DNA of 64,000 nt, taken from a virus. Its lineage: Duplodnaviria; Heunggongvirae; Uroviricota; Caudoviricetes. Of the stretch, positions 12,784-45,430 are shown piece after piece. The notes beneath the pieces were generated by a model, which had not been told where the DNA came from, did not search any database, and was given only the letters and a program-made list of their open reading frames with translations. The position numbers and the translations under genes were made by a program. Position 1 is the first letter of the stretch; each line of letters starts with the position of its first letter. The stretch lies in IMG/VR virus record IMGVR_UViG_2875713109_000001, one strand, 5' to 3'.

Positions 12784-14490
12784 TTACTCAGAGTCACCGG
12801 CATCAATCATGTTACCGGTCAGGAAGTTAATTCCGCCATTTTTGGCCATAGTCAGAGTTACACGCGTGAAGTAGTCAGCGCCGTTACGTGGGTGCATATC
12901 GTTGATAGCCGAACCCCACAGAGTGGTTCGGTTAACTAGTGCCGGGGTGGTCGGATGCTGGAATGGGACAGCCGGGACTGCATCACCAGTTACGAAGCCC
13001 GCTTTGCCCGGATTTTCATCACGGACGTAGCACAGCACATCCATTGGGCTGAACTGGATACCGTCGGCGGTCAGGTTCGTACAAATACCTTCTGGTACTT
13101 CGAACACTTTGACGTTGCCGAACAGATTGCCAATGTAGTGGACGTATGGGGTCTGGATGTAATCTTCTGCTGGCTGGAAGAAATCCTTCGGCAATTGTTT
13201 GAAGAAAGATGCCGCATCAGCACCGGCATACATCCCCATCGCACCAGAAGATTTAATACGCTCAATAATACCGCGATATACCGTCTGGAATTTGCCTCGA
13301 ATGATGGTTGCCCACACATCAAAGGACTGGTTAGCTGGCAGTGCAATATCAAAGGAGTCGGTCGCAAGAGTTCGCCAAATCATGATACGAAGACGAAGCA
13401 TATCTTGCTCATGGGACAGGTATTCCTTCAGGGTGCGGAACTGTAGGGAGCCAAGATCCAGACCAAATTCACGCTGTGCTTCATACGCCGCCTGTACCGT
13501 GTGCTCAGCCGCGATGACGAACTGGTTTGGGAACAGGGTGTAACTCTTCATTTCGTGGTTGATAAGTGGGATCAGCTCAGGAGCTGCTTCTATATTGATC
13601 TCCGCCTCAATGGCGATCTCTGTACCTTTATCTGGCGCTTTGGAGAACGACAGGACAATCTGACCAACGTTGTAATTCAAAGAGCAAGTAACAGTGATTT
13701 GTTCGCCTGCTTTGTTATTGAATGTGTGAAGCAGAGTGCCGGAGCCGTTATCAACAACAGACTTAATACGGTTAACGTAGATGTTTGTGCGACCTTTGCG
13801 AATCGGGACATTCTGACCTTCGACATCTTCCATCTTGAAGGTTGCAGTTTTGCTGGTGCCGTCGGAGCTTGCAACCAGCACATAGCGGCGGCGCAACTGG
13901 CTGTACACGCCAACGGATTGCATGTCCAGAACATCACCAATAGCATAAGAGCCAAAAGAAGAACCCGCTACGTTAAAGATTTCATAGATTTCGGACTTGT
14001 CACGCGTAACCGGAATGAATGTACACGCATCAGCGGTAGCTGCCCCCAACTGAACAGGCAGGATCATCGCCAGGAATAAAGGCAGACGCATAACCCCGTC
14101 AGAAACACTCATCATCTCTGCCGCGACTGATTCCAGCATCGCTTTATTGGTGGCATCCATGCTATTGCGGGTGGACTCAATCAGGCAGTTTTCCAGCGTC
14201 TGGTGGCAGGAGGCCAGAATTTCCGGACGTGGCATAGATTTATGTGTTGCGGCGTAGTCAGCCAGTGCACTTGCCCACGCTGTAGCGATTTGAGCGGTGG
14301 CATTATCAGAGATACCCGCAAAAATTGGGTCTTTACGTGCAGCTTCAAGGATAGATGCGGCACGCGCGGCATCATCTTTAATGAATTGGTTATCAGTACC
14401 GAACTGCGCAGTGCTTGCCCAGCCAAGCACAGCTTTAGAGCGTTTTGCGATATCTGCAATACGATTCTGGTATTCGCGTAAGTTACTCAA
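12784..14490 (-). CDS. large virion structural protein (about 568 aa), candidate major head protein
   Basis: Long ORF adjacent to parS/parB as gene 23 is in P1; probable TTG start at 14490 after AGGAAG SD (track start 14511 is also TTG). Confidence 0.35.
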   Translation of the reverse strand: MSNLREYQNRIADIAKRSKAVLGWASTAQFGTDNQFIKDDAARAASILEAARKDPIFAGISDNATAQIATAWASALADYAATHKSMPRPEILASCHQTLENCLIESTRNSMDATNKAMLESVAAEMMSVSDGVMRLPLFLAMILPVQLGAATADACTFIPVTRDKSEIYEIFNVAGSSFGSYAIGDVLDMQSVGVYSQLRRRYVLVASSDGTSKTATFKMEDVEGQNVPIRKGRTNIYVNRIKSVVDNGSGTLLHTFNNKAGEQITVTCSLNYNVGQIVLSFSKAPDKGTEIAIEAEINIEAAPELIPLINHEMKSYTLFPNQFVIAAEHTVQAAYEAQREFGLDLGSLQFRTLKEYLSHEQDMLRLRIMIWRTLATDSFDIALPANQSFDVWATIIRGKFQTVYRGIIERIKSSGAMGMYAGADAASFFKQLPKDFFQPAEDYIQTPYVHYIGNLFGNVKVFEVPEGICTNLTADGIQFSPMDVLCYVRDENPGKAGFVTGDAVPAVPFQHPTTPALVNRTTLWGSAINDMHPRNGADYFTRVTLTMAKNGGINFLTGNMIDAGDSE

Positions 14491-14534
14491 TTTACTCTTC
14501 CTTAAACACAAGGCACTTGTGTGAATCCCTTTTC

Positions 14535-14725
14535 GGAAGAGATTTTATTGAAAGTCACTTGTTGACTTTCTCGCGAAAAGTAATTTTTTAAATTTTTTTG
14601 TGCGGGGAGGAGAACGAGTAATACAGGCGTTAAATTGTGGGAATTTCAGCCTGAAATCTTTTATGAATATTTATATATATCATGCACTTATACATGAAAT
14701 CGGCGCGGGACATTTTAGGCAGAGG
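14535..14725. other. putative parS centromere region
   Basis: Non-coding AT-rich region downstream of parB with palindrome gaaagtcacttgttgactttc (14550-14570), TCGCGA hexamer and atttcag/ctgaaat inverted heptamers resembling ParB box elements. Confidence 0.35.
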
Positions 14726-14756
14726 AGGAGGCTAAAACCACCTCCCACCAGCTGGA

Positions 14757-15722
14757 TTATTCCCCAGCAGACATTTTCCCAATGATTTTTTTTATTGCTT
14801 CGTCAATTTCAGTTTGCACTTCAGACGGGAGTCTGGAGAACTCGTAGGCGACTACCCGTTTTTTCGGATCAGACTTCTTTCTGGCGTATTGACGACGGTC
14901 AGAGAAGTCTCGCAGCTTCTCAACCACCACAGATTTAACCGGCGCGGGCTTCAGGCTTTTGCTTTCCGCTTTGAAGATAGCCAGTATCTTCGCTTTATCC
15001 TCTTTCGCGCCCTCAGTCTCTGCAATTCGTTCGCGCACCGTATCAACCAGCTCTTCAATAGGTACGCTTTTAGCGTTGGCATCCTCGGAGATCTGGAGCA
15101 GTAACTGGTAATCTGGCAGGGCGAGATCGCTGGCAACAGGGAAGACAGCAATCATCTCATCCGGCACCGCTGCCGCCTGGAACGCGCGCGTAACTTTAGC
15201 CTTTGAAATGTTCTCAGCGCGGGCGATCTCTTCTTTGGTCATGCTCTTACCATACATAACCTCGAAGCGTTTACCCAGTTCGCGCAGGGTGTGTTCGCGG
15301 GCTGTCTGGATATCAATGGCCAGCTGGCGTGCATCCGCCAGGCTGATCTCATCTTTCGTCACCAGAATCTCAAATTTCGTTTCATTAAAGATACACGCAG
15401 CGCGGCGACGTGATCCGTCCAATACCTCAATGCGCTCCCCAACCATACGACCGATAGCCGGGAAGAACTGTTGCAATTTAATGGTGCGGGAAATATCGCT
15501 TACCGACTCAGGGGTGAGCAGAGACTGATCGCGGCCGTTAACTGCCGGGTCAACGAACGTGCGCGACTCAATCTCACCACTCAGCACAACGGTAAGCAAA
15601 AATTTAGCCTGGCGGCCAGATTTTAGGGTAAAGGTTTTGGTGCCTTCACTGCCTTCAAGCATGCGAGCAAACTCGGAGCTATTCTTGCCCAGCACTCGTC
15701 CACGGGAAACTATTTTTTTCAT
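14757..15722 (-). CDS. parB: ParB partition protein
   Basis: 321 aa immediately downstream of and overlapping parA; position between parA and centromere-like region. Confidence 0.75.
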   Translation of the reverse strand: MKKIVSRGRVLGKNSSEFARMLEGSEGTKTFTLKSGRQAKFLLTVVLSGEIESRTFVDPAVNGRDQSLLTPESVSDISRTIKLQQFFPAIGRMVGERIEVLDGSRRRAACIFNETKFEILVTKDEISLADARQLAIDIQTAREHTLRELGKRFEVMYGKSMTKEEIARAENISKAKVTRAFQAAAVPDEMIAVFPVASDLALPDYQLLLQISEDANAKSVPIEELVDTVRERIAETEGAKEDKAKILAIFKAESKSLKPAPVKSVVVEKLRDFSDRRQYARKKSDPKKRVVAYEFSRLPSEVQTEIDEAIKKIIGKMSAGE

Positions 15723-16930
15723 GCCGCCTCACCCCTAACAAACTCAATTCGATCAAACACAGCCTTAGTGAAACGCTCGGCCTCGGTTCGTGCCTTCTTC
15801 AGCGCCTCTGCGCTGCCTGGATACGATTGCGGGTTGGCACTGATTACGGTGTCGAAAGACTCGCCGCATCGCTCAAATCCATCCAGACGAGGCAGAGAAG
15901 AGTCCAGAATGTTGCTGGCGTAAACCTCACGCGCAAGGCTGTGTGATGTCTCGTGATCGCGCTTGCCGGTCATCTTCGACATAAAACCAATGCTGGCGCT
16001 TAAACGCGGTTCTACGCCTTCCTCCTCCAGTTGCTCCAGCATTTCTGGCAGACGGGTGAGATATTTCAGTGTTGAGTGGAAGTCAACCTGGGCTGGTGGG
16101 GTAGGGGTAAGCAGCAAATCGCTGGCCGCCAGACCGTTGAGCAGGAACGGATCCAGGTGTGGACCGGTATCAATAAAGATAAAGTCATAATCATCCGCAA
16201 CACGATCAATGATATTGCGTCGAAGGATTTCGTACTGATTTTGTCCGGGAAGATGCTCTTCAACCAGCTCTTTCCATTGGCTGGCAACAAAGCCATCGTC
16301 GATAGAGGCTGGAATCACGTCTACGCCAGGAACGATGGTCGGACGAATCACCTCTTTGCGTAGCGTCTCCGCGTCCAGGTCGTTCAGCATCGCCTGCGCA
16401 GCGGTTTCCAGGATGGAACCAATACTGTGAGTATGGTCGAGGAACATTGTGCTGGATGCCTGAGGGTCAAGGTCAATTACCAGAATACGCAGATCGTGAC
16501 GCAGTAAATCCTGATGCACACGCAGAGCGTGCGCCAACGTGACTGTGGAAACCGTTTTGGATACGCCACCCTTCAGGTTTACGACAAAAATAACGTAAGG
16601 CGATTTGTGAATGTCGCGATATTTTGGGATCTTACGGTGGGCATAGATATCAATGACGTTCTGGATGGTCAGCGCGTACTGTTCAACGTTACCGACCTGT
16701 TTCTTGTTGAACTGGTACCCATTATCTTCCATCTCTTTGATGGCCTGCTCCACAATGCGGCGGCTCAGCTTCGGCAACTTTGCCACAGCGTTACGAGTGA
16801 ACGTCTGATAATACTCGGTCTGATTGAACTCTTTGCGCTGATCTTCAATATCCTGACTCATGGCCTTAAGTAATGCGCTTGCACGAAGAGCTATGGTGCC
16901 GACACCGCCGTAATCGCGTTTCATCATCAT
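15719..16930 (-). CDS. parA: ParA partition ATPase
   Basis: Deviant Walker A KGGVSKT in YVIFVVNLKGGVSKTVSTVTLAHA; recognisable but diverged similarity to recalled P1 ParA (e.g. LPRLDGFERCGESFDTVISANP conserved). Confidence 0.85.
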   Translation of the reverse strand: MMMKRDYGGVGTIALRASALLKAMSQDIEDQRKEFNQTEYYQTFTRNAVAKLPKLSRRIVEQAIKEMEDNGYQFNKKQVGNVEQYALTIQNVIDIYAHRKIPKYRDIHKSPYVIFVVNLKGGVSKTVSTVTLAHALRVHQDLLRHDLRILVIDLDPQASSTMFLDHTHSIGSILETAAQAMLNDLDAETLRKEVIRPTIVPGVDVIPASIDDGFVASQWKELVEEHLPGQNQYEILRRNIIDRVADDYDFIFIDTGPHLDPFLLNGLAASDLLLTPTPPAQVDFHSTLKYLTRLPEMLEQLEEEGVEPRLSASIGFMSKMTGKRDHETSHSLAREVYASNILDSSLPRLDGFERCGESFDTVISANPQSYPGSAEALKKARTEAERFTKAVFDRIEFVRGEAA

Positions 16931-17038
16931 CTCCTTATCATTTCGTATGAGTGAATTGTACGTTTGATTCTGCTACGTGCAACTTATTTTGATTTGTGCG
17001 TAAATTATTGCACGTAAAAAATGGCGATGAGGCTATTA

Positions 17039-17323
17039 GATGTGTGCTGGAGGGATGATGCAGGACCAGAATGTGCGATAGAGGGAAGTCGCATTGAATT
17101 ATGTGTTGTGGAGGGATCGCTGGTATCAAATATGTGCGCTGAAGGGAAAGATAGAAGATTAGATGTGCGCTGGAGGGAAACTTGGATGGTTAGATGTGTG
17201 CTGGAGGGAATGTCTGGGCAAACTGCGTGGCGCAACCCTCCAGCGCACACCAAAAACAGGAAAATGGGCAGGCATTCCCGGCAGCGCACATTTTTCAAAT
17301 GCAGCTGCCCTCCAGCACACACT
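17039..17323. repeat. incA iteron array (9 copies of 19-bp RepA-binding repeat, 6 forward and 3 inverted)
   Basis: Repeats of GATGTGTGCTGGAGGGAAA-like units directly downstream of repA. Confidence 0.75.
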
Positions 17324-18183
17324 TATTCGGGAAGTTTCAGCTTTGGATTGCGAGAATGGACGATTACAAAACTTTCCCGGCCTTTCTTCTCAATTGAACA
17401 GTCGAGATAGCCGATTGTTTTAAGCTGTTCTATCGCTTTCTTAATGATACGGTTTTGCTCGCCAACAGCTGACTGCAAAGCCAGGCGCTCACGGATTCGC
17501 GCGAACGATAGCGGCAACGGGTTCTGCGGAAGGCTTTCGATGAAAGTGTAAATGGCTTGTGCAGCTTCTTTCTTCGGAAGGGCACGCAAGGCGTGGTGTT
17601 GCAACAGAACGCGATAATCAAGCTGGAACAGCTCCCAGAGCTTCGAATCGGCCTCCAGCTCTATCAGATCAAGGTCAGCATCAAAACGCCCGACCTTCAG
17701 CAGACCAGTCTGATAGCCGCCTTTAGCATCTTTTCCGCGCTTAAAAGCGATACCCTTGTTACGCAAGCGTCCAAGTGATTCATGAATGGTTAAACGCAGT
17801 TTCGCATCCAGACGTTTTGAGGGGAAACCACAGGCTTTAGCGAACTCCTGAAACGATAACTGGATGGTGTTTGAAGACAAGCCGTATTTGCTGAACGCGT
17901 AGATGACACCGATCCACGTTTTGAAATCAGTATCCATATCGAGTCGAGGACCGGTGATTTTAATATCATCGTAACCCTCGGCTTTAGCTATCTCCAGCTG
18001 GGAAAACGCTTTGGTGGCATCAATCTCTTTACTTTCTCCTTTGCTCTTTGATGGCTTCGGCACGAATACCCCCAAGCGCATCAACGCTACAGGCTGCACA
18101 GTGTTGTTTGAATTAACTGTTAGTTCTTTTGCCTTACTTTCAATGTCTGCGTAAAGAATATCGGAGATAAATGATTGATTCAT
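17323..18183 (-). CDS. repA: RepA plasmid replication initiator
   Basis: 286 aa as in P1 RepA; flanked by 5 iterons upstream and 9 downstream, with DnaA boxes and GATC cluster upstream. Confidence 0.85.
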   Translation of the reverse strand: MNQSFISDILYADIESKAKELTVNSNNTVQPVALMRLGVFVPKPSKSKGESKEIDATKAFSQLEIAKAEGYDDIKITGPRLDMDTDFKTWIGVIYAFSKYGLSSNTIQLSFQEFAKACGFPSKRLDAKLRLTIHESLGRLRNKGIAFKRGKDAKGGYQTGLLKVGRFDADLDLIELEADSKLWELFQLDYRVLLQHHALRALPKKEAAQAIYTFIESLPQNPLPLSFARIRERLALQSAVGEQNRIIKKAIEQLKTIGYLDCSIEKKGRESFVIVHSRNPKLKLPE

Positions 18184-42041: not shown

Positions 42042-42251
42042 ATGGCTATCGCTGCAAGTTACACCATGCATCTCTATTGTGATTGCCTCCAGTGTACAGA
42101 TGGCAAATATAAGTCGCCAGACTTCGGTGAGTATATAGGTACGTCATGGGCTGGCTGTGCAAAAGAGGCGCGCAAGGATGGCTGGCGAATAAGCAAAGAC
42201 AAAACGCGTGCTTTTGCGCCCGGGCATAAAGTTTTGAGGATTAACAAATGA
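42042..42251 (+). CDS. small Cys-rich protein (69 aa)
   Basis: AAAGGAGAG SD; CDCLQC...C pattern. Confidence 0.45.
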   Translation: MAIAASYTMHLYCDCLQCTDGKYKSPDFGEYIGTSWAGCAKEARKDGWRISKDKTRAFAPGHKVLRINK

Positions 42252-42964
42252 CCACTATAACCAAAGAGCGACTGCTGACAATCAAGCAGTGGCGCGAAAC
42301 ATACGGACCTGGTAGCAACGTTGTACTGCCAGCAGAAGAAGCGGAAGAACTGGCACGAATTGCGCTGGCATCGCTGGAAGCAGATCCAGTTGCTTATATT
42401 TTCAAACATCCGGCCGGGAAATTATTCTGGGCTTTAACGGATGAAAGCAATAAAGAGCAAGCGGACGTTATTCCTGTTTATGCTGCCGCGCCTGCGTCGG
42501 TTGTGCCGGATAATGCATCAGAGCCTCTTGCTTATGCTTACAAAGAGCTTACGCCTGAGATTATGCGCAACCATTTAGCTGTATTCGAGCGATATGGAAT
42601 AGCCCCAAACGATAGCTCTACCACAATTCAGGCACTGCGAATCGCGCTGGATGGCATAGAGCGGAGCGACGCCATGCTTCATGGTGCCGAACCTGTAAGC
42701 CAAACTTACAAGTTGAACCAGCTATCGGGCAACTCTCCGGCAACTCCGGATGGTTGGATAAGCTGTAGTGAGCGAATGCCGAATACCAAAACAGCCGTTC
42801 TTGTTGCCGTGGAGTTTGACAGGAAAGGTGACTGGCGAATGAAATGGGCTACTTACATCCCCGGGCATCCTGACGCTAATGATGGGTGGATAATTCCTGG
42901 TGCGTCGTGGAAACCGTCACACTGGATGCCGCTACCAGAACCGCCGCAGGAGGTGAATCAATGA
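42248..42964 (+). CDS. DUF551-like domain protein
   Basis: C-terminal GWISCSERMP...W...HWMPLPEPP resembles DUF551. Confidence 0.45.
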   Translation: MTTITKERLLTIKQWRETYGPGSNVVLPAEEAEELARIALASLEADPVAYIFKHPAGKLFWALTDESNKEQADVIPVYAAAPASVVPDNASEPLAYAYKELTPEIMRNHLAVFERYGIAPNDSSTTIQALRIALDGIERSDAMLHGAEPVSQTYKLNQLSGNSPATPDGWISCSERMPNTKTAVLVAVEFDRKGDWRMKWATYIPGHPDANDGWIIPGASWKPSHWMPLPEPPQEVNQ

Positions 42965-43028
42965 GCTGGCCTGAAGCATTCACCACGGTAGGAATTGTGA
43001 TGGCGGCAGCACTGGGTTTGTATTCAAT

Positions 43029-43280
43029 TTGTCGCTGGTGGTAACGATGGGAAAAATAACTTTTGTAGTCGAATTTGAGGATGGCAAAGAGCCACCTGTT
43101 AGCGCCAATCTTGATGTTGCTGGTGGCAGGCTGGTTTCGGTTCTATTTGGTGATTACCGCGACGACTTCTTTCAGCCTGAAGAAGTTGATGTAGTGCGAG
43201 AAGCATTAAACGAGCTAAGTGTTGATAACGATGATGCTCATGCGGAAATCATCAAAAAAATGGAACTGCTAACTCACTAA
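43029..43280 (+). CDS. hypothetical acidic small protein (83 aa)
   Basis: ORF only. Confidence 0.35.
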   Translation: MSLVVTMGKITFVVEFEDGKEPPVSANLDVAGGRLVSVLFGDYRDDFFQPEEVDVVREALNELSVDNDDAHAEIIKKMELLTH

Positions 43281-43458
43281 ATTATCAATTATGGTGCTAT
43301 CACCTACGACACCGAGAGAAAATTTATAATGTCAAAAGTAAATGTTTTGATTTTTTCAGCAATTGTTGGCTTTGGTTTTACTGCCGGAGTGCAGATTTAT
43401 ATTGCGTGGGAAAAAATCATCAACTACGCATGGAGTTGTTTTATTAAGTGAGGTAAGT

Positions 43459-43752
43459 ATGTGGAGAGGTAATAGTCATGGCAAAAGCCAGATGATACTT
43501 ACCGAATATCAGTTTGACCATAAAACCAATAAATCACGTTCAGTATATTTGCTTCGGCACAATAGCCGCGTAAGGAATACCGTGCTGGAGCAAAATCTGA
43601 CTGTTGAAATGGATAATTACGGGGGCTTCAAGCCAACAATTTCGCTTGATGATTTTCCTCGTGGTTTAAGCGAAAGAGAAGCAATGCTGAAATTAGCAGA
43701 ATGGCTACAAAGATTAAGCATTGCTATTGAAGATAACTGGTCTGAACCTTAA
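43459..43752 (+). CDS. hypothetical protein (97 aa), AT-rich gene
   Basis: GTGAGG SD before ATG 43459; low GC. Confidence 0.4.
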   Translation: MWRGNSHGKSQMILTEYQFDHKTNKSRSVYLLRHNSRVRNTVLEQNLTVEMDNYGGFKPTISLDDFPRGLSEREAMLKLAEWLQRLSIAIEDNWSEP

Positions 43753-43758
43753 ATTTAT

Positions 43759-44133
43759 ATGATGACACTAAAACATTTTCTTGACCGCCCATTATGGGCG
43801 GCAGCCGCAGGCTATGACTTTAATTATATGGATTGCATGTCTTATACCGCCAATGCATACGACCATTCCTTCAGTCTGCTGTTTAATTCTTTAAGAATAT
43901 TGCCGCAAACAGAAGTTGGAGAGCTTCATTTATGGCTATTGGGCTTTATCGCGGCTGGAGTTGGTATTGCTGTATGGCCTTTTATTTTCTGGCTGGTGGC
44001 TGTTGTAGTGTGGTTTAAGTGCAAGACGTACCGGAAAAAGTATTTCTTAGGTGATGGAATGACTGATATTGCCAAAATGAACATTGAAAAATGGACTAAG
44101 GAATGTGAAAAGAAATGGCGCAAAAAGAAATGA
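43759..44133 (+). CDS. membrane protein (124 aa) with basic C-terminus
   Basis: TM LWLLGFIAAGVGIAVWPFIFWLVAVVVW then KKWRKKK. Confidence 0.45.
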   Translation: MMTLKHFLDRPLWAAAAGYDFNYMDCMSYTANAYDHSFSLLFNSLRILPQTEVGELHLWLLGFIAAGVGIAVWPFIFWLVAVVVWFKCKTYRKKYFLGDGMTDIAKMNIEKWTKECEKKWRKKK

Positions 44134-44774
44134 CTACTCTAACGACAGCATACTTACAGCAATTGGTATTTTTTGCAGGCGAGGCTACTTGTCATCCTGA
44201 CGCAAACTATTTATTGGAATTTGAGAGGTTAGCGTCACCCGGTATCGTTCTGGAACTGGCCCAACAGGTGCTGGCCTTAAGACAAAAAGAGCAACATGAA
44301 AGTAATACGTGTAGATTGAACTTTGAGCAGTGGCTGGAACAGCAACGCGGAAAAATCGATGTGGACTGTGGTTGTGTGTCTACTGAAACATTCATGCACT
44401 GGCTGCGGGTAGCTTACGAGGCTGGCAACTATCCGGATATTCCGGATAGTTCGGTGCCAGGGCCAGGAAAGGGCGTCACCGGTGAACGTATCCGCATTAA
44501 GCCGCATGTTTATCGCGAACTGGTTAACCGTCTCCACGATACAGCGATCAAGTGTGCTGGCACCCAGCAATTACGAGAAAGAATTAGCCGTGTTTTGGGC
44601 GACGTTATTAAGCCAGACCATCATAAACAAGCCGAGAAAAGTGGCCTGGAAAGGTGTCACCTTGAGGCGGCATTAAACATTAACCCGGGGCATACGCTTG
44701 GCATTATTGATGCACTATTGGTTCATAAGATGGCCAGGGCTTTATTGCCGCTGGTAGGGGGCAATGACAACTAG
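44115..44774 (+). CDS. hypothetical protein (219 aa)
   Basis: ORF overlapping upstream gene end. Confidence 0.4.
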   Translation: MAQKEMTTLTTAYLQQLVFFAGEATCHPDANYLLEFERLASPGIVLELAQQVLALRQKEQHESNTCRLNFEQWLEQQRGKIDVDCGCVSTETFMHWLRVAYEAGNYPDIPDSSVPGPGKGVTGERIRIKPHVYRELVNRLHDTAIKCAGTQQLRERISRVLGDVIKPDHHKQAEKSGLERCHLEAALNINPGHTLGIIDALLVHKMARALLPLVGGNDN

Positions 44775-44858
44775 GAAAAAATCGCATTACTGGTGGCAAA
44801 GCCATAACTACTGATACAATATTTCTAGGTTAAAGATCTGGCATTAGGTAGAGATAGC

Positions 44859-45323
44859 ATGTTTCTTCATATCAATCCCGATTGGGCATCAGCTATTGCG
44901 GCATTTGGGTCAGCAATAGCTGCTTTTATTAGTTTGCGCACAAGTAAAAATCTTGGATTATTCGATAAGGAAAAATTTTATAGTGAAGCATTGATAAACT
45001 TTGCTGATAGGGCAAATAAAATAGCAACAGGAAAAGCTGGATCAGACTGGGATGTTAATGACGCAAGTAATATAATTCTTTCACTAAATGCCGCAAAAGA
45101 AACTATTGAAAGTGCGCCAAAACCTATTCGAGAGAAACTAAAACAATATTACAAACATAATCTTTGCCATGAGATCATAACTGAATTAGAGGCTCACTCT
45201 CCCCCAGATTCAGTAATTGTAAGAGAACCATCAGAGTATGAAGGCAAGATCATGGGATTGTGGGATGAGATTAAAATATTTCTGGGTTATACAGTGGTAT
45301 CAGAAGCAGACCTTGAAGATTAA
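44859..45323 (+). CDS. membrane-anchored protein (154 aa), AT-rich gene
   Basis: N-terminal hydrophobic segment WASAIAAFGSAIAAFISL; low GC relative to neighbours. Confidence 0.4.
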   Translation: MFLHINPDWASAIAAFGSAIAAFISLRTSKNLGLFDKEKFYSEALINFADRANKIATGKAGSDWDVNDASNIILSLNAAKETIESAPKPIREKLKQYYKHNLCHEIITELEAHSPPDSVIVREPSEYEGKIMGLWDEIKIFLGYTVVSEADLED

Positions 45324-45430
45324 AGTTTGGTGTGACCACATCATTTCATCAATGATGCCCGAAGTGGGGAGTTTGACGATTGTCCGGTGATTTAAGCTGC
45401 AAAGTGCTGGTGCTTTATGCTTGTGAAGTT

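What the first reader, a model, noticed from the sequence alone, without database searches (positions are those of the whole stretch)
14535..16930. Partition system diverged from P1 at ParA and at the centromere
ParA is clearly homologous to recalled P1 ParA but substantially diverged, and the centromere-like region carries a TCGCGA hexamer and a 21-bp palindrome. This suggests a distinct partition specificity (P7-like or other) and therefore a different incompatibility behaviour.
Basis: partly seen in the sequence, partly recalled or inferred. Interest (0 to 1): 0.3.

Follow-up and report, generated by a model that had tools for sequence, protein, structure and literature searches.

The report
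Phage P7-type plasmid partition locus

Summary
Window 14629-17016 (minus strand) is the par operon of a P1-family (IncY) plasmid prophage. It is the phage P7 version. ParB is 321/321 identical to P7 ParB and ParA is 402/403. The DNA is 98.2% identical to P7 and about 100% identical to E. coli plasmid NZ_AP027786.1.

The centromere evidence was misplaced. TCGCGA (14571-14576) and the 21-bp palindrome (14550-14570) lie 53-79 bp outside parS. They sit in the late promoter LP23 of gene 23. The palindrome is identical in P1 and P7, and TCGCGA occurs at chance frequency.

The real parS is 14629-14711. It has the P7 boxes B1 GTCCCG, A1, an IHF site, A2, A3 and B2 TTCCCA, all unchanged. It is 72/83 identical to P7 and 49/83 to P1. 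Its 11 differences from P7 fall in spacers, in the unspecified positions of the IHF site, and in the variable box A4.

RepA is identical to P1/P7 RepA. Only partition-mediated incompatibility is therefore P7-type, and the replicon remains IncY.

One minor curiosity: the parS spacer is 15-24% diverged among plasmids whose parAB genes differ by less than 1%. This was already noted in the literature. Verdict: already known.

The parts
15719..16930 (-). parA: type Ia partition ATPase with an N-terminal HTH (autorepressor) domain, 403 aa
   Evidence: ORF. 402/403 identical to P7 ParA and 58% identical to P1 ParA. Pfam HTH_54 plus AAA_31/CbiA. Full-length match to the solved P7 ParA structure 3EZ9/3EZF, 884 bits.
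14757..15722 (-). parB: centromere-binding protein, 321 aa; its start overlaps the parA stop by 4 nt
   Evidence: ORF. 321/321 identical to P7 ParB and 43% identical to P1 ParB. Pfam PF08775 ParB. Matches the P1 ParB(142-333) structures 1ZX4/2NTZ.
14629..14711 (-). parS centromere, P7 species. Boxes: B1 GTCCCG 14706-14711; A1 ATTTCAT 14694-14700; IHF site 14678-14690; A2 ATTTCAG 14651-14657; A3 CTGAAAT 14643-14649; B2 TTCCCA 14638-14643; A4 ATTTAAC 14629-14635
   Evidence: Coordinates were transferred from the annotated P7 record by a gap-free alignment. It is 72/83 identical to P7 and 49/83 to P1. There are no differences from P7 in B1, A1, A2, A3 or B2. Across 25 distinct P7-type parS sequences, box columns are conserved and spacers are variable.
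14719..14749 (-). Conserved GC-rich hairpin between the parB stop codon and parS; present in P7-type loci and absent in P1
   Evidence: Folding energy -16.9 kcal/mol, z = -2.06. The stem is kept in 7 P7-type loci, but with no compensatory changes. Its function is unknown, and it is not followed by a T run.
16931..17016 (-). par promoter/operator region upstream of parA, with the inverted repeat TACGTGCAA (16974-16982) / TTGCACGTA (17008-17016)
   Evidence: Inverted repeat I13. The arms are identical in P7 and in plasmid CP032890, and the 3 substitutions relative to P7 lie between the arms. The sequence is dissimilar to the P1 operator region. ParA binding is inferred, not tested.
14542..14576 (-). 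NOT part of the par system. This is the late promoter LP23 of gene 23: -10 at 14542-14547, -22 box at 14552-14560.
   Evidence: P7 and P1 annotations. The palindrome is 100% conserved in P1, P7 and all variants examined. The motif AAGTNACTT-N4-TANNNT occurs 7 times in the window against 1 expected.

Best explanation
The locus is the phage P7 species of the P1par family. This is a type Ia ParABS partition system that keeps the unit-copy plasmid prophage in both daughter cells.

The mechanism below comes from established work on P1 and P7. It is inferred here from sequence identity and was not tested.
1. IHF bends parS at its central site.
2. A ParB dimer binds the heptamer A boxes through its helix-turn-helix motif, and binds the hexamer B boxes through its C-terminal dimer domain.
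3. The ParB-parS complex stimulates the nucleoid-bound ParA ATPase, and this positions the plasmid copies apart.
4. ParA-ADP also represses the operon at the operator upstream of parA.

Species specificity resides in box B (xTCCCx in P7, TCGCCA in P1) together with the matching ParB C-terminal residues. This element should therefore be served by P7 ParB and show par-mediated incompatibility with P7-type plasmids, but not with P1 parS. Because its RepA is identical to P1/P7 RepA and its nine incA iterons keep the P1/P7 spacing with mostly conserved cores, it should still be replication-incompatible (IncY) with both P1 and P7.
For: - ParB is 321/321 and ParA 402/403 identical to P7.
- The DNA is 98.2% identical to P7 AF503408 across 14400-17000.
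- parS has the same order and spacing of B1-A1-IHF-A2-A3-B2-A4 as annotated in P7. B1, A1, A2, A3 and B2 are identical to P7.
- The specified positions of the IHF site are kept: TATCATnnnnTTA.
- Pfam assigns HTH_54 plus AAA_31 to ParA and PF08775 to ParB.
- ParA matches the solved P7 ParA structure over its full length.
- The operator inverted repeat is identical to P7.
- RepA is identical to P7 and P1 RepA.
- The same cassette is found in 233 PLSDB plasmids, and its parS region in 210 of 5426 complete E. coli genomes.
- PMC10999674 summarises that A2-A3-B2 suffice for ParB binding and that box B2 sets incompatibility specificity.
- PMC3597684 and PMC5016525 describe the HTH/A-box and dimer-domain/B-box contacts and the IHF bend.
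Against: - Nothing contradicts the assignment, but function was not tested.
- parS differs from P7 at 11 of 83 positions, including 2 in box A4 (ATTTAAC against GTTTCAC). An effect on affinity cannot be excluded from sequence alone.
- The primary papers on the box B discriminator (Hayes & Austin 1993; Radnedge 1996, 1998; Dabrazhynetskaya 2005, 2009) were not held in the library. The TC/CG discriminator detail therefore rests on my own knowledge plus the secondary summary.
Confidence: 0.95

Rival explanations
1. The parS variant in this window defines a new partition/incompatibility subgroup within the P7 type. On this view, spacer, IHF-site and box A4 changes let it coexist with canonical P7-par plasmids even though ParB is identical.
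For: - The parS region is a divergence hot spot. It differs from P7-type relatives by 15-24%, while parAB differ by 0.4-0.8%.
- At least four sequence classes exist. The window's class is rare: 4 PLSDB records and 5 of 210 E. coli genomes.
Against: - All ParB contact boxes known to be needed (A2, A3, B2), plus B1 and A1, are identical to P7. ParB itself is identical, so both plasmids would draw on the same ParB pool and the same sites.
- Box B2 is reported to be the incompatibility determinant.
- Variation is confined to columns that are also free to vary in all other classes, which is the pattern expected from relaxed constraint.
- The box A4 form ATTTAAC is the majority form, 13 of 25.
Confidence: 0.04
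2. One reading: the TCGCGA hexamer and the 21-bp palindrome at 14550-14576 are centromere elements (a box B-like hexamer and a ParB-binding palindrome).
For: TCGCGA differs by one base from the P1 box B sequence TCGCCA, and the two motifs lie only 53-79 bp from parS.
Against: - Both motifs lie outside the 83-bp parS defined in P1 and P7.
- The palindrome is identical in P1 and P7, which have different par specificities. It overlaps the annotated LP23 -22 box.
- The late-promoter motif recurs 7 times in the window against 1 expected.
- TCGCGA occurs at chance frequency, and P7 has TAGCGA at the same site.
Confidence: 0.01

Closest known systems
Phage P7 par system (parA-parB-parS; GenBank AF503408 / X17529)
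   Same: - ParB is 100% identical and ParA 99.8% identical.
- Gene order, the 4-nt parA/parB overlap, parS box order and spacing, and the sequences of B1, A1, A2, A3 and B2 are the same.
- The consensus positions of the IHF site and the operator inverted repeat are the same.
   Different: - There are 11 substitutions in the 83-bp parS: 6 in spacers, 3 in the unspecified positions of the IHF site, and 2 in box A4.
- There are 23 differences in the 156 bp between parB and the poly-A tract.
- There is one ParA substitution (N70 here, D70 in P7).
Phage P1 par system (NC_005856)
   Same: It belongs to the same family (P1par, type Ia), has the same architecture, and sits at the same genomic position between gene 23 and incA/repA. 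The flanking LP23 promoter and RepA are identical.
   Different: - ParA is 58% and ParB 43% identical.
- Box B is TCGCCA in P1, against GTCCCG/TTCCCA here.
- parS is 49/83 identical.
- The operator is dissimilar.
- P1 lacks the hairpin between parB and parS, and it has about 160 bp extra between incA and the par promoter.
E. coli IncY phage-plasmid p2017-03-3CC_3 (NZ_AP027786.1) and relatives (CP142546, NZ_CP071075, NZ_CP103510)
   Same: The par locus is about 100% identical (1 mismatch in 2601 bp). It has the same parS sequence class, and the whole window is collinear with the plasmid at 97-99.9%.
   Different: There is one base difference in the parS spacer (14662). Gene 23 is intact here but interrupted by ISVsa5 in that plasmid. 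The 40.4-45.4 kb block differs.

Membership tests
P1par family (type Ia ParABS of P1, P7, pMT1, pWR100) | [quoted passage not shown] | tested here: met
   Pfam HTH_54 (1e-37 range) plus AAA_31/CbiA. 58% identical to P1 ParA. Matches the P1 and P7 ParA structures.
P1par family (type Ia ParABS of P1, P7, pMT1, pWR100) | ParB has a central HTH and a C-terminal dimer/box B-binding domain | tested here: met
   Pfam PF08775 covers residues 194-314. Aligns to P1 ParB(142-333) structures 1ZX4/2NTZ over residues 137-316.
P1par family (type Ia ParABS of P1, P7, pMT1, pWR100) | parS lies downstream of parB, with heptamer A boxes and hexamer B boxes arranged B-A / IHF site / A-A-B-A | tested here: met
   All seven elements are found in the same register as in the annotated P1 and P7 records.
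P7 partition species (P7 incB specificity) | Box B sequences of P7 type (B1 GTCCCG, B2 TTCCCA), not P1 type (TCGCCA) | tested here: met
   Window B1 is GTCCCG at 14706-14711 and B2 is TTCCCA at 14638-14643, both identical to P7.
P7 partition species (P7 incB specificity) | ParB discriminator residues and ParA-interaction region are of P7 type | tested here: met
   ParB is 321/321 identical to P7 ParB.
P7 partition species (P7 incB specificity) | Functional behaviour: stabilised by P7 ParAB, par-incompatible with P7 and not with P1 parS | not testable with these tools
   This requires mini-plasmid stability and incompatibility assays.
P1 partition species | Box B = TCGCCA together with P1-type ParB | tested here: not met
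   Box B differs at both copies. ParB is 43% identical to P1 ParB. parS is 49/83 identical.
IncY (P1/P7) replicon | P1-type RepA flanked by 19-bp iterons (incA, incC) | tested here: met
   RepA is 286/286 identical to P7 RepA and 223/223 identical to the part of P1 RepA compared. Nine incA iterons have the P1/P7 spacing. The nearest plasmids are typed IncY.

The most novel reading that the evidence does not exclude
The fast-diverging parS spacer might not be merely unconstrained. It is 15-24% diverged between plasmids whose parAB genes are more than 99% identical, and the divergence extends into the last ~140 nt of parB. It could be a recombination or diversification hot spot that tunes partition-complex geometry. 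That would let co-resident P7-type phage-plasmids partly escape par-mediated incompatibility without changing ParB.
Probability: 0.04. Interest if true: 0.45.

Novelty: already known. Interest (0 to 1): 0.08.

Why it matters
It matters little beyond correct annotation. The element is a P1-like IncY phage-plasmid that carries the P7 rather than the P1 partition cassette. That combination is found in about 4% of complete E. coli genomes, and its mechanism and specificity determinants were worked out in the 1980s-2000s. Practically, it predicts par-mediated exclusion against other P7-par plasmids and replicon (IncY) exclusion against all P1/P7-type plasmids. The one mildly interesting point is that the centromere spacer is far more variable than the genes that read it. 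This has already been remarked on for pTZ20_1P (PMC6906374).

Tried and rejected
1. I tested whether TCGCGA and the 21-bp palindrome are centromere elements. This is rejected: they map to the LP23 late promoter, are shared with P1, or occur at chance frequency.
2. I tested whether the box A4 change (ATTTAAC) marks a defective or novel parS. This is rejected: it is the majority form among P7-type loci, 13 of 25, and A4 lies outside the A2-A3-B2 core reported as sufficient.
3. I asked whether the hairpin between parB and parS is a terminator or a structured RNA. It is not followed by a T run, shows no compensatory covariation, and has z = -2.06 only. It is left as an unexplained conserved hairpin.
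4. The sigma-70 consensus scan found no promoter-like site in 14450-17100. The par promoter was therefore placed only by homology to P7.
5. I tried to read the primary P1/P7 specificity papers (PMC1170934, PMC1196149, PMC2632008). They are not held in the library.
6. The megablast search with the 161-bp parS region found only 5 plasmids, which at first looked like rarity of the locus. The more sensitive blastn search found 235. So it is the window's parS sequence class, not the parS type, that is rare.

Full report
**What is at the coordinates**

On the minus strand the region holds two overlapping ORFs. parA runs 16930..15719 (403 aa) and parB runs 15722..14757 (321 aa). A non-coding stretch follows, down to the start of gene 23 (the P1 major head protein homologue, 14511..12784). 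Upstream of parA lie nine iterons and repA (18183..17323). Pfam assigns ParA to HTH_54 plus AAA_31/CbiA, which is a type Ia partition ATPase with an N-terminal DNA-binding domain. It assigns ParB to PF08775.

**Identity of the locus**

- Megablast of 14400-17000 gives 98.2% identity over the full length to phage P7 (AF503408, NC_050152, and the original P7 par record X17529).
- The same query is about 100% identical to E. coli IncY plasmid NZ_AP027786.1.
- 233 PLSDB plasmids cover at least 80% of the query.
- P1 itself matches only the first 262 bases, which are the start of gene 23, its promoter and part of parS.
- At protein level, ParB is 321/321 identical to P7 ParB and ParA is 402/403.
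- Against P1, ParA is 58% identical and ParB 43%.
- ParA matches the solved P7 ParA structure 3EZ9/3EZF over its full length, 884 bits.

The guess "P7-like" is exactly right: this is the P7 par system.

**The centromere**

I transferred the annotated P7 and P1 parS features onto the window through a gap-free alignment. This gives parS at 14629-14711 on the minus strand:

| Element | Sequence | Coordinates |
|---|---|---|
| B1 | GTCCCG | 14706-14711 |
| A1 | ATTTCAT | 14694-14700 |
| IHF site | | 14678-14690 |
| A2 | ATTTCAG | 14651-14657 |
| A3 | CTGAAAT | 14643-14649 |
| B2 | TTCCCA | 14638-14643 |
| A4 | ATTTAAC | 14629-14635 |

- B1, A1, A2, A3 and B2 are identical to P7. P1 has TCGCCA at both B boxes.
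- Over the 83 bp, the window is 72/83 identical to P7 and 49/83 identical to P1. P7 against P1 is 50/83.
- Of the 11 differences from P7, 6 are in spacers and 2 are in box A4.
- The other 3 are in the unspecified positions of the IHF site. The plus strand reads TATCATGCACTTA against TATCATATATTTA in P7, so the positions matching the WATCAANNNNTTR consensus are unchanged.

The literature supports the functional reading.
- A2-A3-B2 ("small parS") suffice for ParB binding. The B boxes, B2 in particular, are the discriminators that set species and incompatibility specificity (PMC10999674, citing Dabrazhynetskaya 2005/2009 and Sergueev 2005).
- The A boxes are read by the ParB HTH, and the B boxes by loops of the C-terminal dimer domain. 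IHF bends the site (PMC3597684, PMC5016525).
- That the P1/P7 discrimination lies in the CG/TC dinucleotide of box B is my own recollection of Hayes & Austin 1993 and Radnedge et al. 1996. Those papers were not available.

TCGCGA is at 14571-14576 and the 21-bp palindrome GAAAGTCA/CTTGT/TGACTTTC is at 14550-14570. Both lie outside parS, 53-79 bp beyond box A4.
- The palindrome overlaps the annotated Lpa-dependent late promoter LP23 of gene 23 (-22 box AAGTGACTT at 14552-14560, -10 TAAAAT at 14542-14547).
- It is 100% identical in the window, P7, P1 and every variant plasmid examined.
- The motif AAGTNACTT-N4-TANNNT occurs 7 times in the window (up to 1 mismatch) against about 1 expected, as befits a phage late-promoter family.
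- TCGCGA occurs 16 times in 64 kb against 15.6 expected. Here it results from a single variable base: P7 has TAGCGA and P1 has TCACGA.

Neither feature is evidence about partition specificity.

**Variation among P7-type loci**

With the 161-bp parS region as query, megablast finds only 5 plasmids, but blastn finds 235. These fall into identity bands of at least 95% (4 records, the window's class), about 85% (the P7 class), about 82% and about 77%. In complete E. coli genomes, 210 of 5426 carry the region, and 5 of these are in the window's class.
- I collected 25 distinct P7-type parS sequences from plasmids and IMG/VR contigs.
- Outside the bases fixed by my search pattern, box columns are invariant in 21 of 34 cases, against 4 of 29 for spacer columns.
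- B1 is GTCCCG in 22 of 25 and A1 is ATTTCAT in 24 of 25.
- The IHF site always keeps TAA....TGA on the minus strand, which is the TCA....TTA core of the plus-strand site given above.
- A4 is free to vary. ATTTAAC occurs in 13 of 25 and GTTTCAC in 9 of 25, so the window's A4 is the common form.
- Between the window and P7 or CP032890, parA and parB differ by 0.4-0.8%, and nearly all of these differences are synonymous. The 156-bp parS region differs by 15-22%.
- 5 of the 7 parB differences from P7 cluster in the last ~140 nt of the gene.

This pattern suggests relaxed constraint plus recombination patches. It has been noted before: for pTZ20_1P, parAB are 99.8% identical to P7 while the region 3' of parB is 81% identical (PMC6906374).

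**Regulation and replicon**

- The inverted repeat TACGTGCAA/TTGCACGTA upstream of parA (16974-16982 / 17008-17016) is identical in P7 and is unlike the P1 operator region. By homology it is the ParA operator. This is an inference.
- RepA is identical to P7 RepA, and identical to the 223 residues of P1 RepA compared. The nine incA iterons keep the P1/P7 spacing.
- The plasmid therefore remains IncY. Only the partition-mediated component of incompatibility differs from P1.

**Context**

The whole window is collinear with NZ_AP027786.1, a 95.8-kb IncY phage-plasmid, at 97-99.9% identity.

**Verdict**

This is a correctly spotted but entirely known system, the P7 species of the P1par family. The supporting centromere features were misassigned. 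Novelty: already known. Interest is low.

Noticed in passing
window 14600-14900: The parS spacer and the last ~140 nt of parB are a divergence hot spot. The parS region differs by 15-24% between P7-type loci whose parAB genes differ by less than 1%. At least four sequence classes exist, and the window's class is rare (5 of 210 E. coli genomes).
   Followed up: partly
window 14719-14749 (-): A GC-rich hairpin (GGGAGGTGG/CCTCCTCC; -16.9 kcal/mol, z = -2.06) lies between the parB stop codon and parS. It is conserved in all P7-type loci and absent from P1. It has no T run and no compensatory changes. Its function is unknown.
   Followed up: partly
L010 (NZ_OR724977.1, IncHI1B/HI2A conjugative plasmid) ~2600-2722: This unrelated 291-kb IncHI plasmid carries a parS-like site with the P7 core ATTTCAGACTGAAATTCCCACAATTTAAC. 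No annotated gene lies under the match. This suggests that P7-species centromeres occur outside P1-like phage-plasmids.
   Followed up: no
window 17100-17300 (incA): There are 27 differences from P7 within 200 bp of the incA iteron array. They are scattered over spacers and some iteron positions, while the flanking repA is 100% conserved at protein level. This is a second non-coding hot spot next to conserved genes.
   Followed up: partly
window 40408-45392: This ~5-kb block does not match the closest plasmid NZ_AP027786.1, which has a type I R-M system (hsdMSR) at that position. Here the block holds small phage-type ORFs, including an Ead/Ea22-like protein and a DUF551 protein.
   Followed up: partly
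window 12784-14511 (-): Gene 23 (the major head protein homologue) is intact here, whereas it is interrupted by ISVsa5 in NZ_AP027786.1. Its distal part (12900-14000) is about 10% diverged from P7, and its first ~500 nt are 96-98% identical.
   Followed up: no
window 6441, 20647, 32705, 47897, 56601 and others: Further copies of the late-promoter-like motif AAGTNACTT-N4-TANNNT occur in the window (7 in total against 1 expected). They are probably the Lpa-dependent late promoters of the prophage.
   Followed up: no
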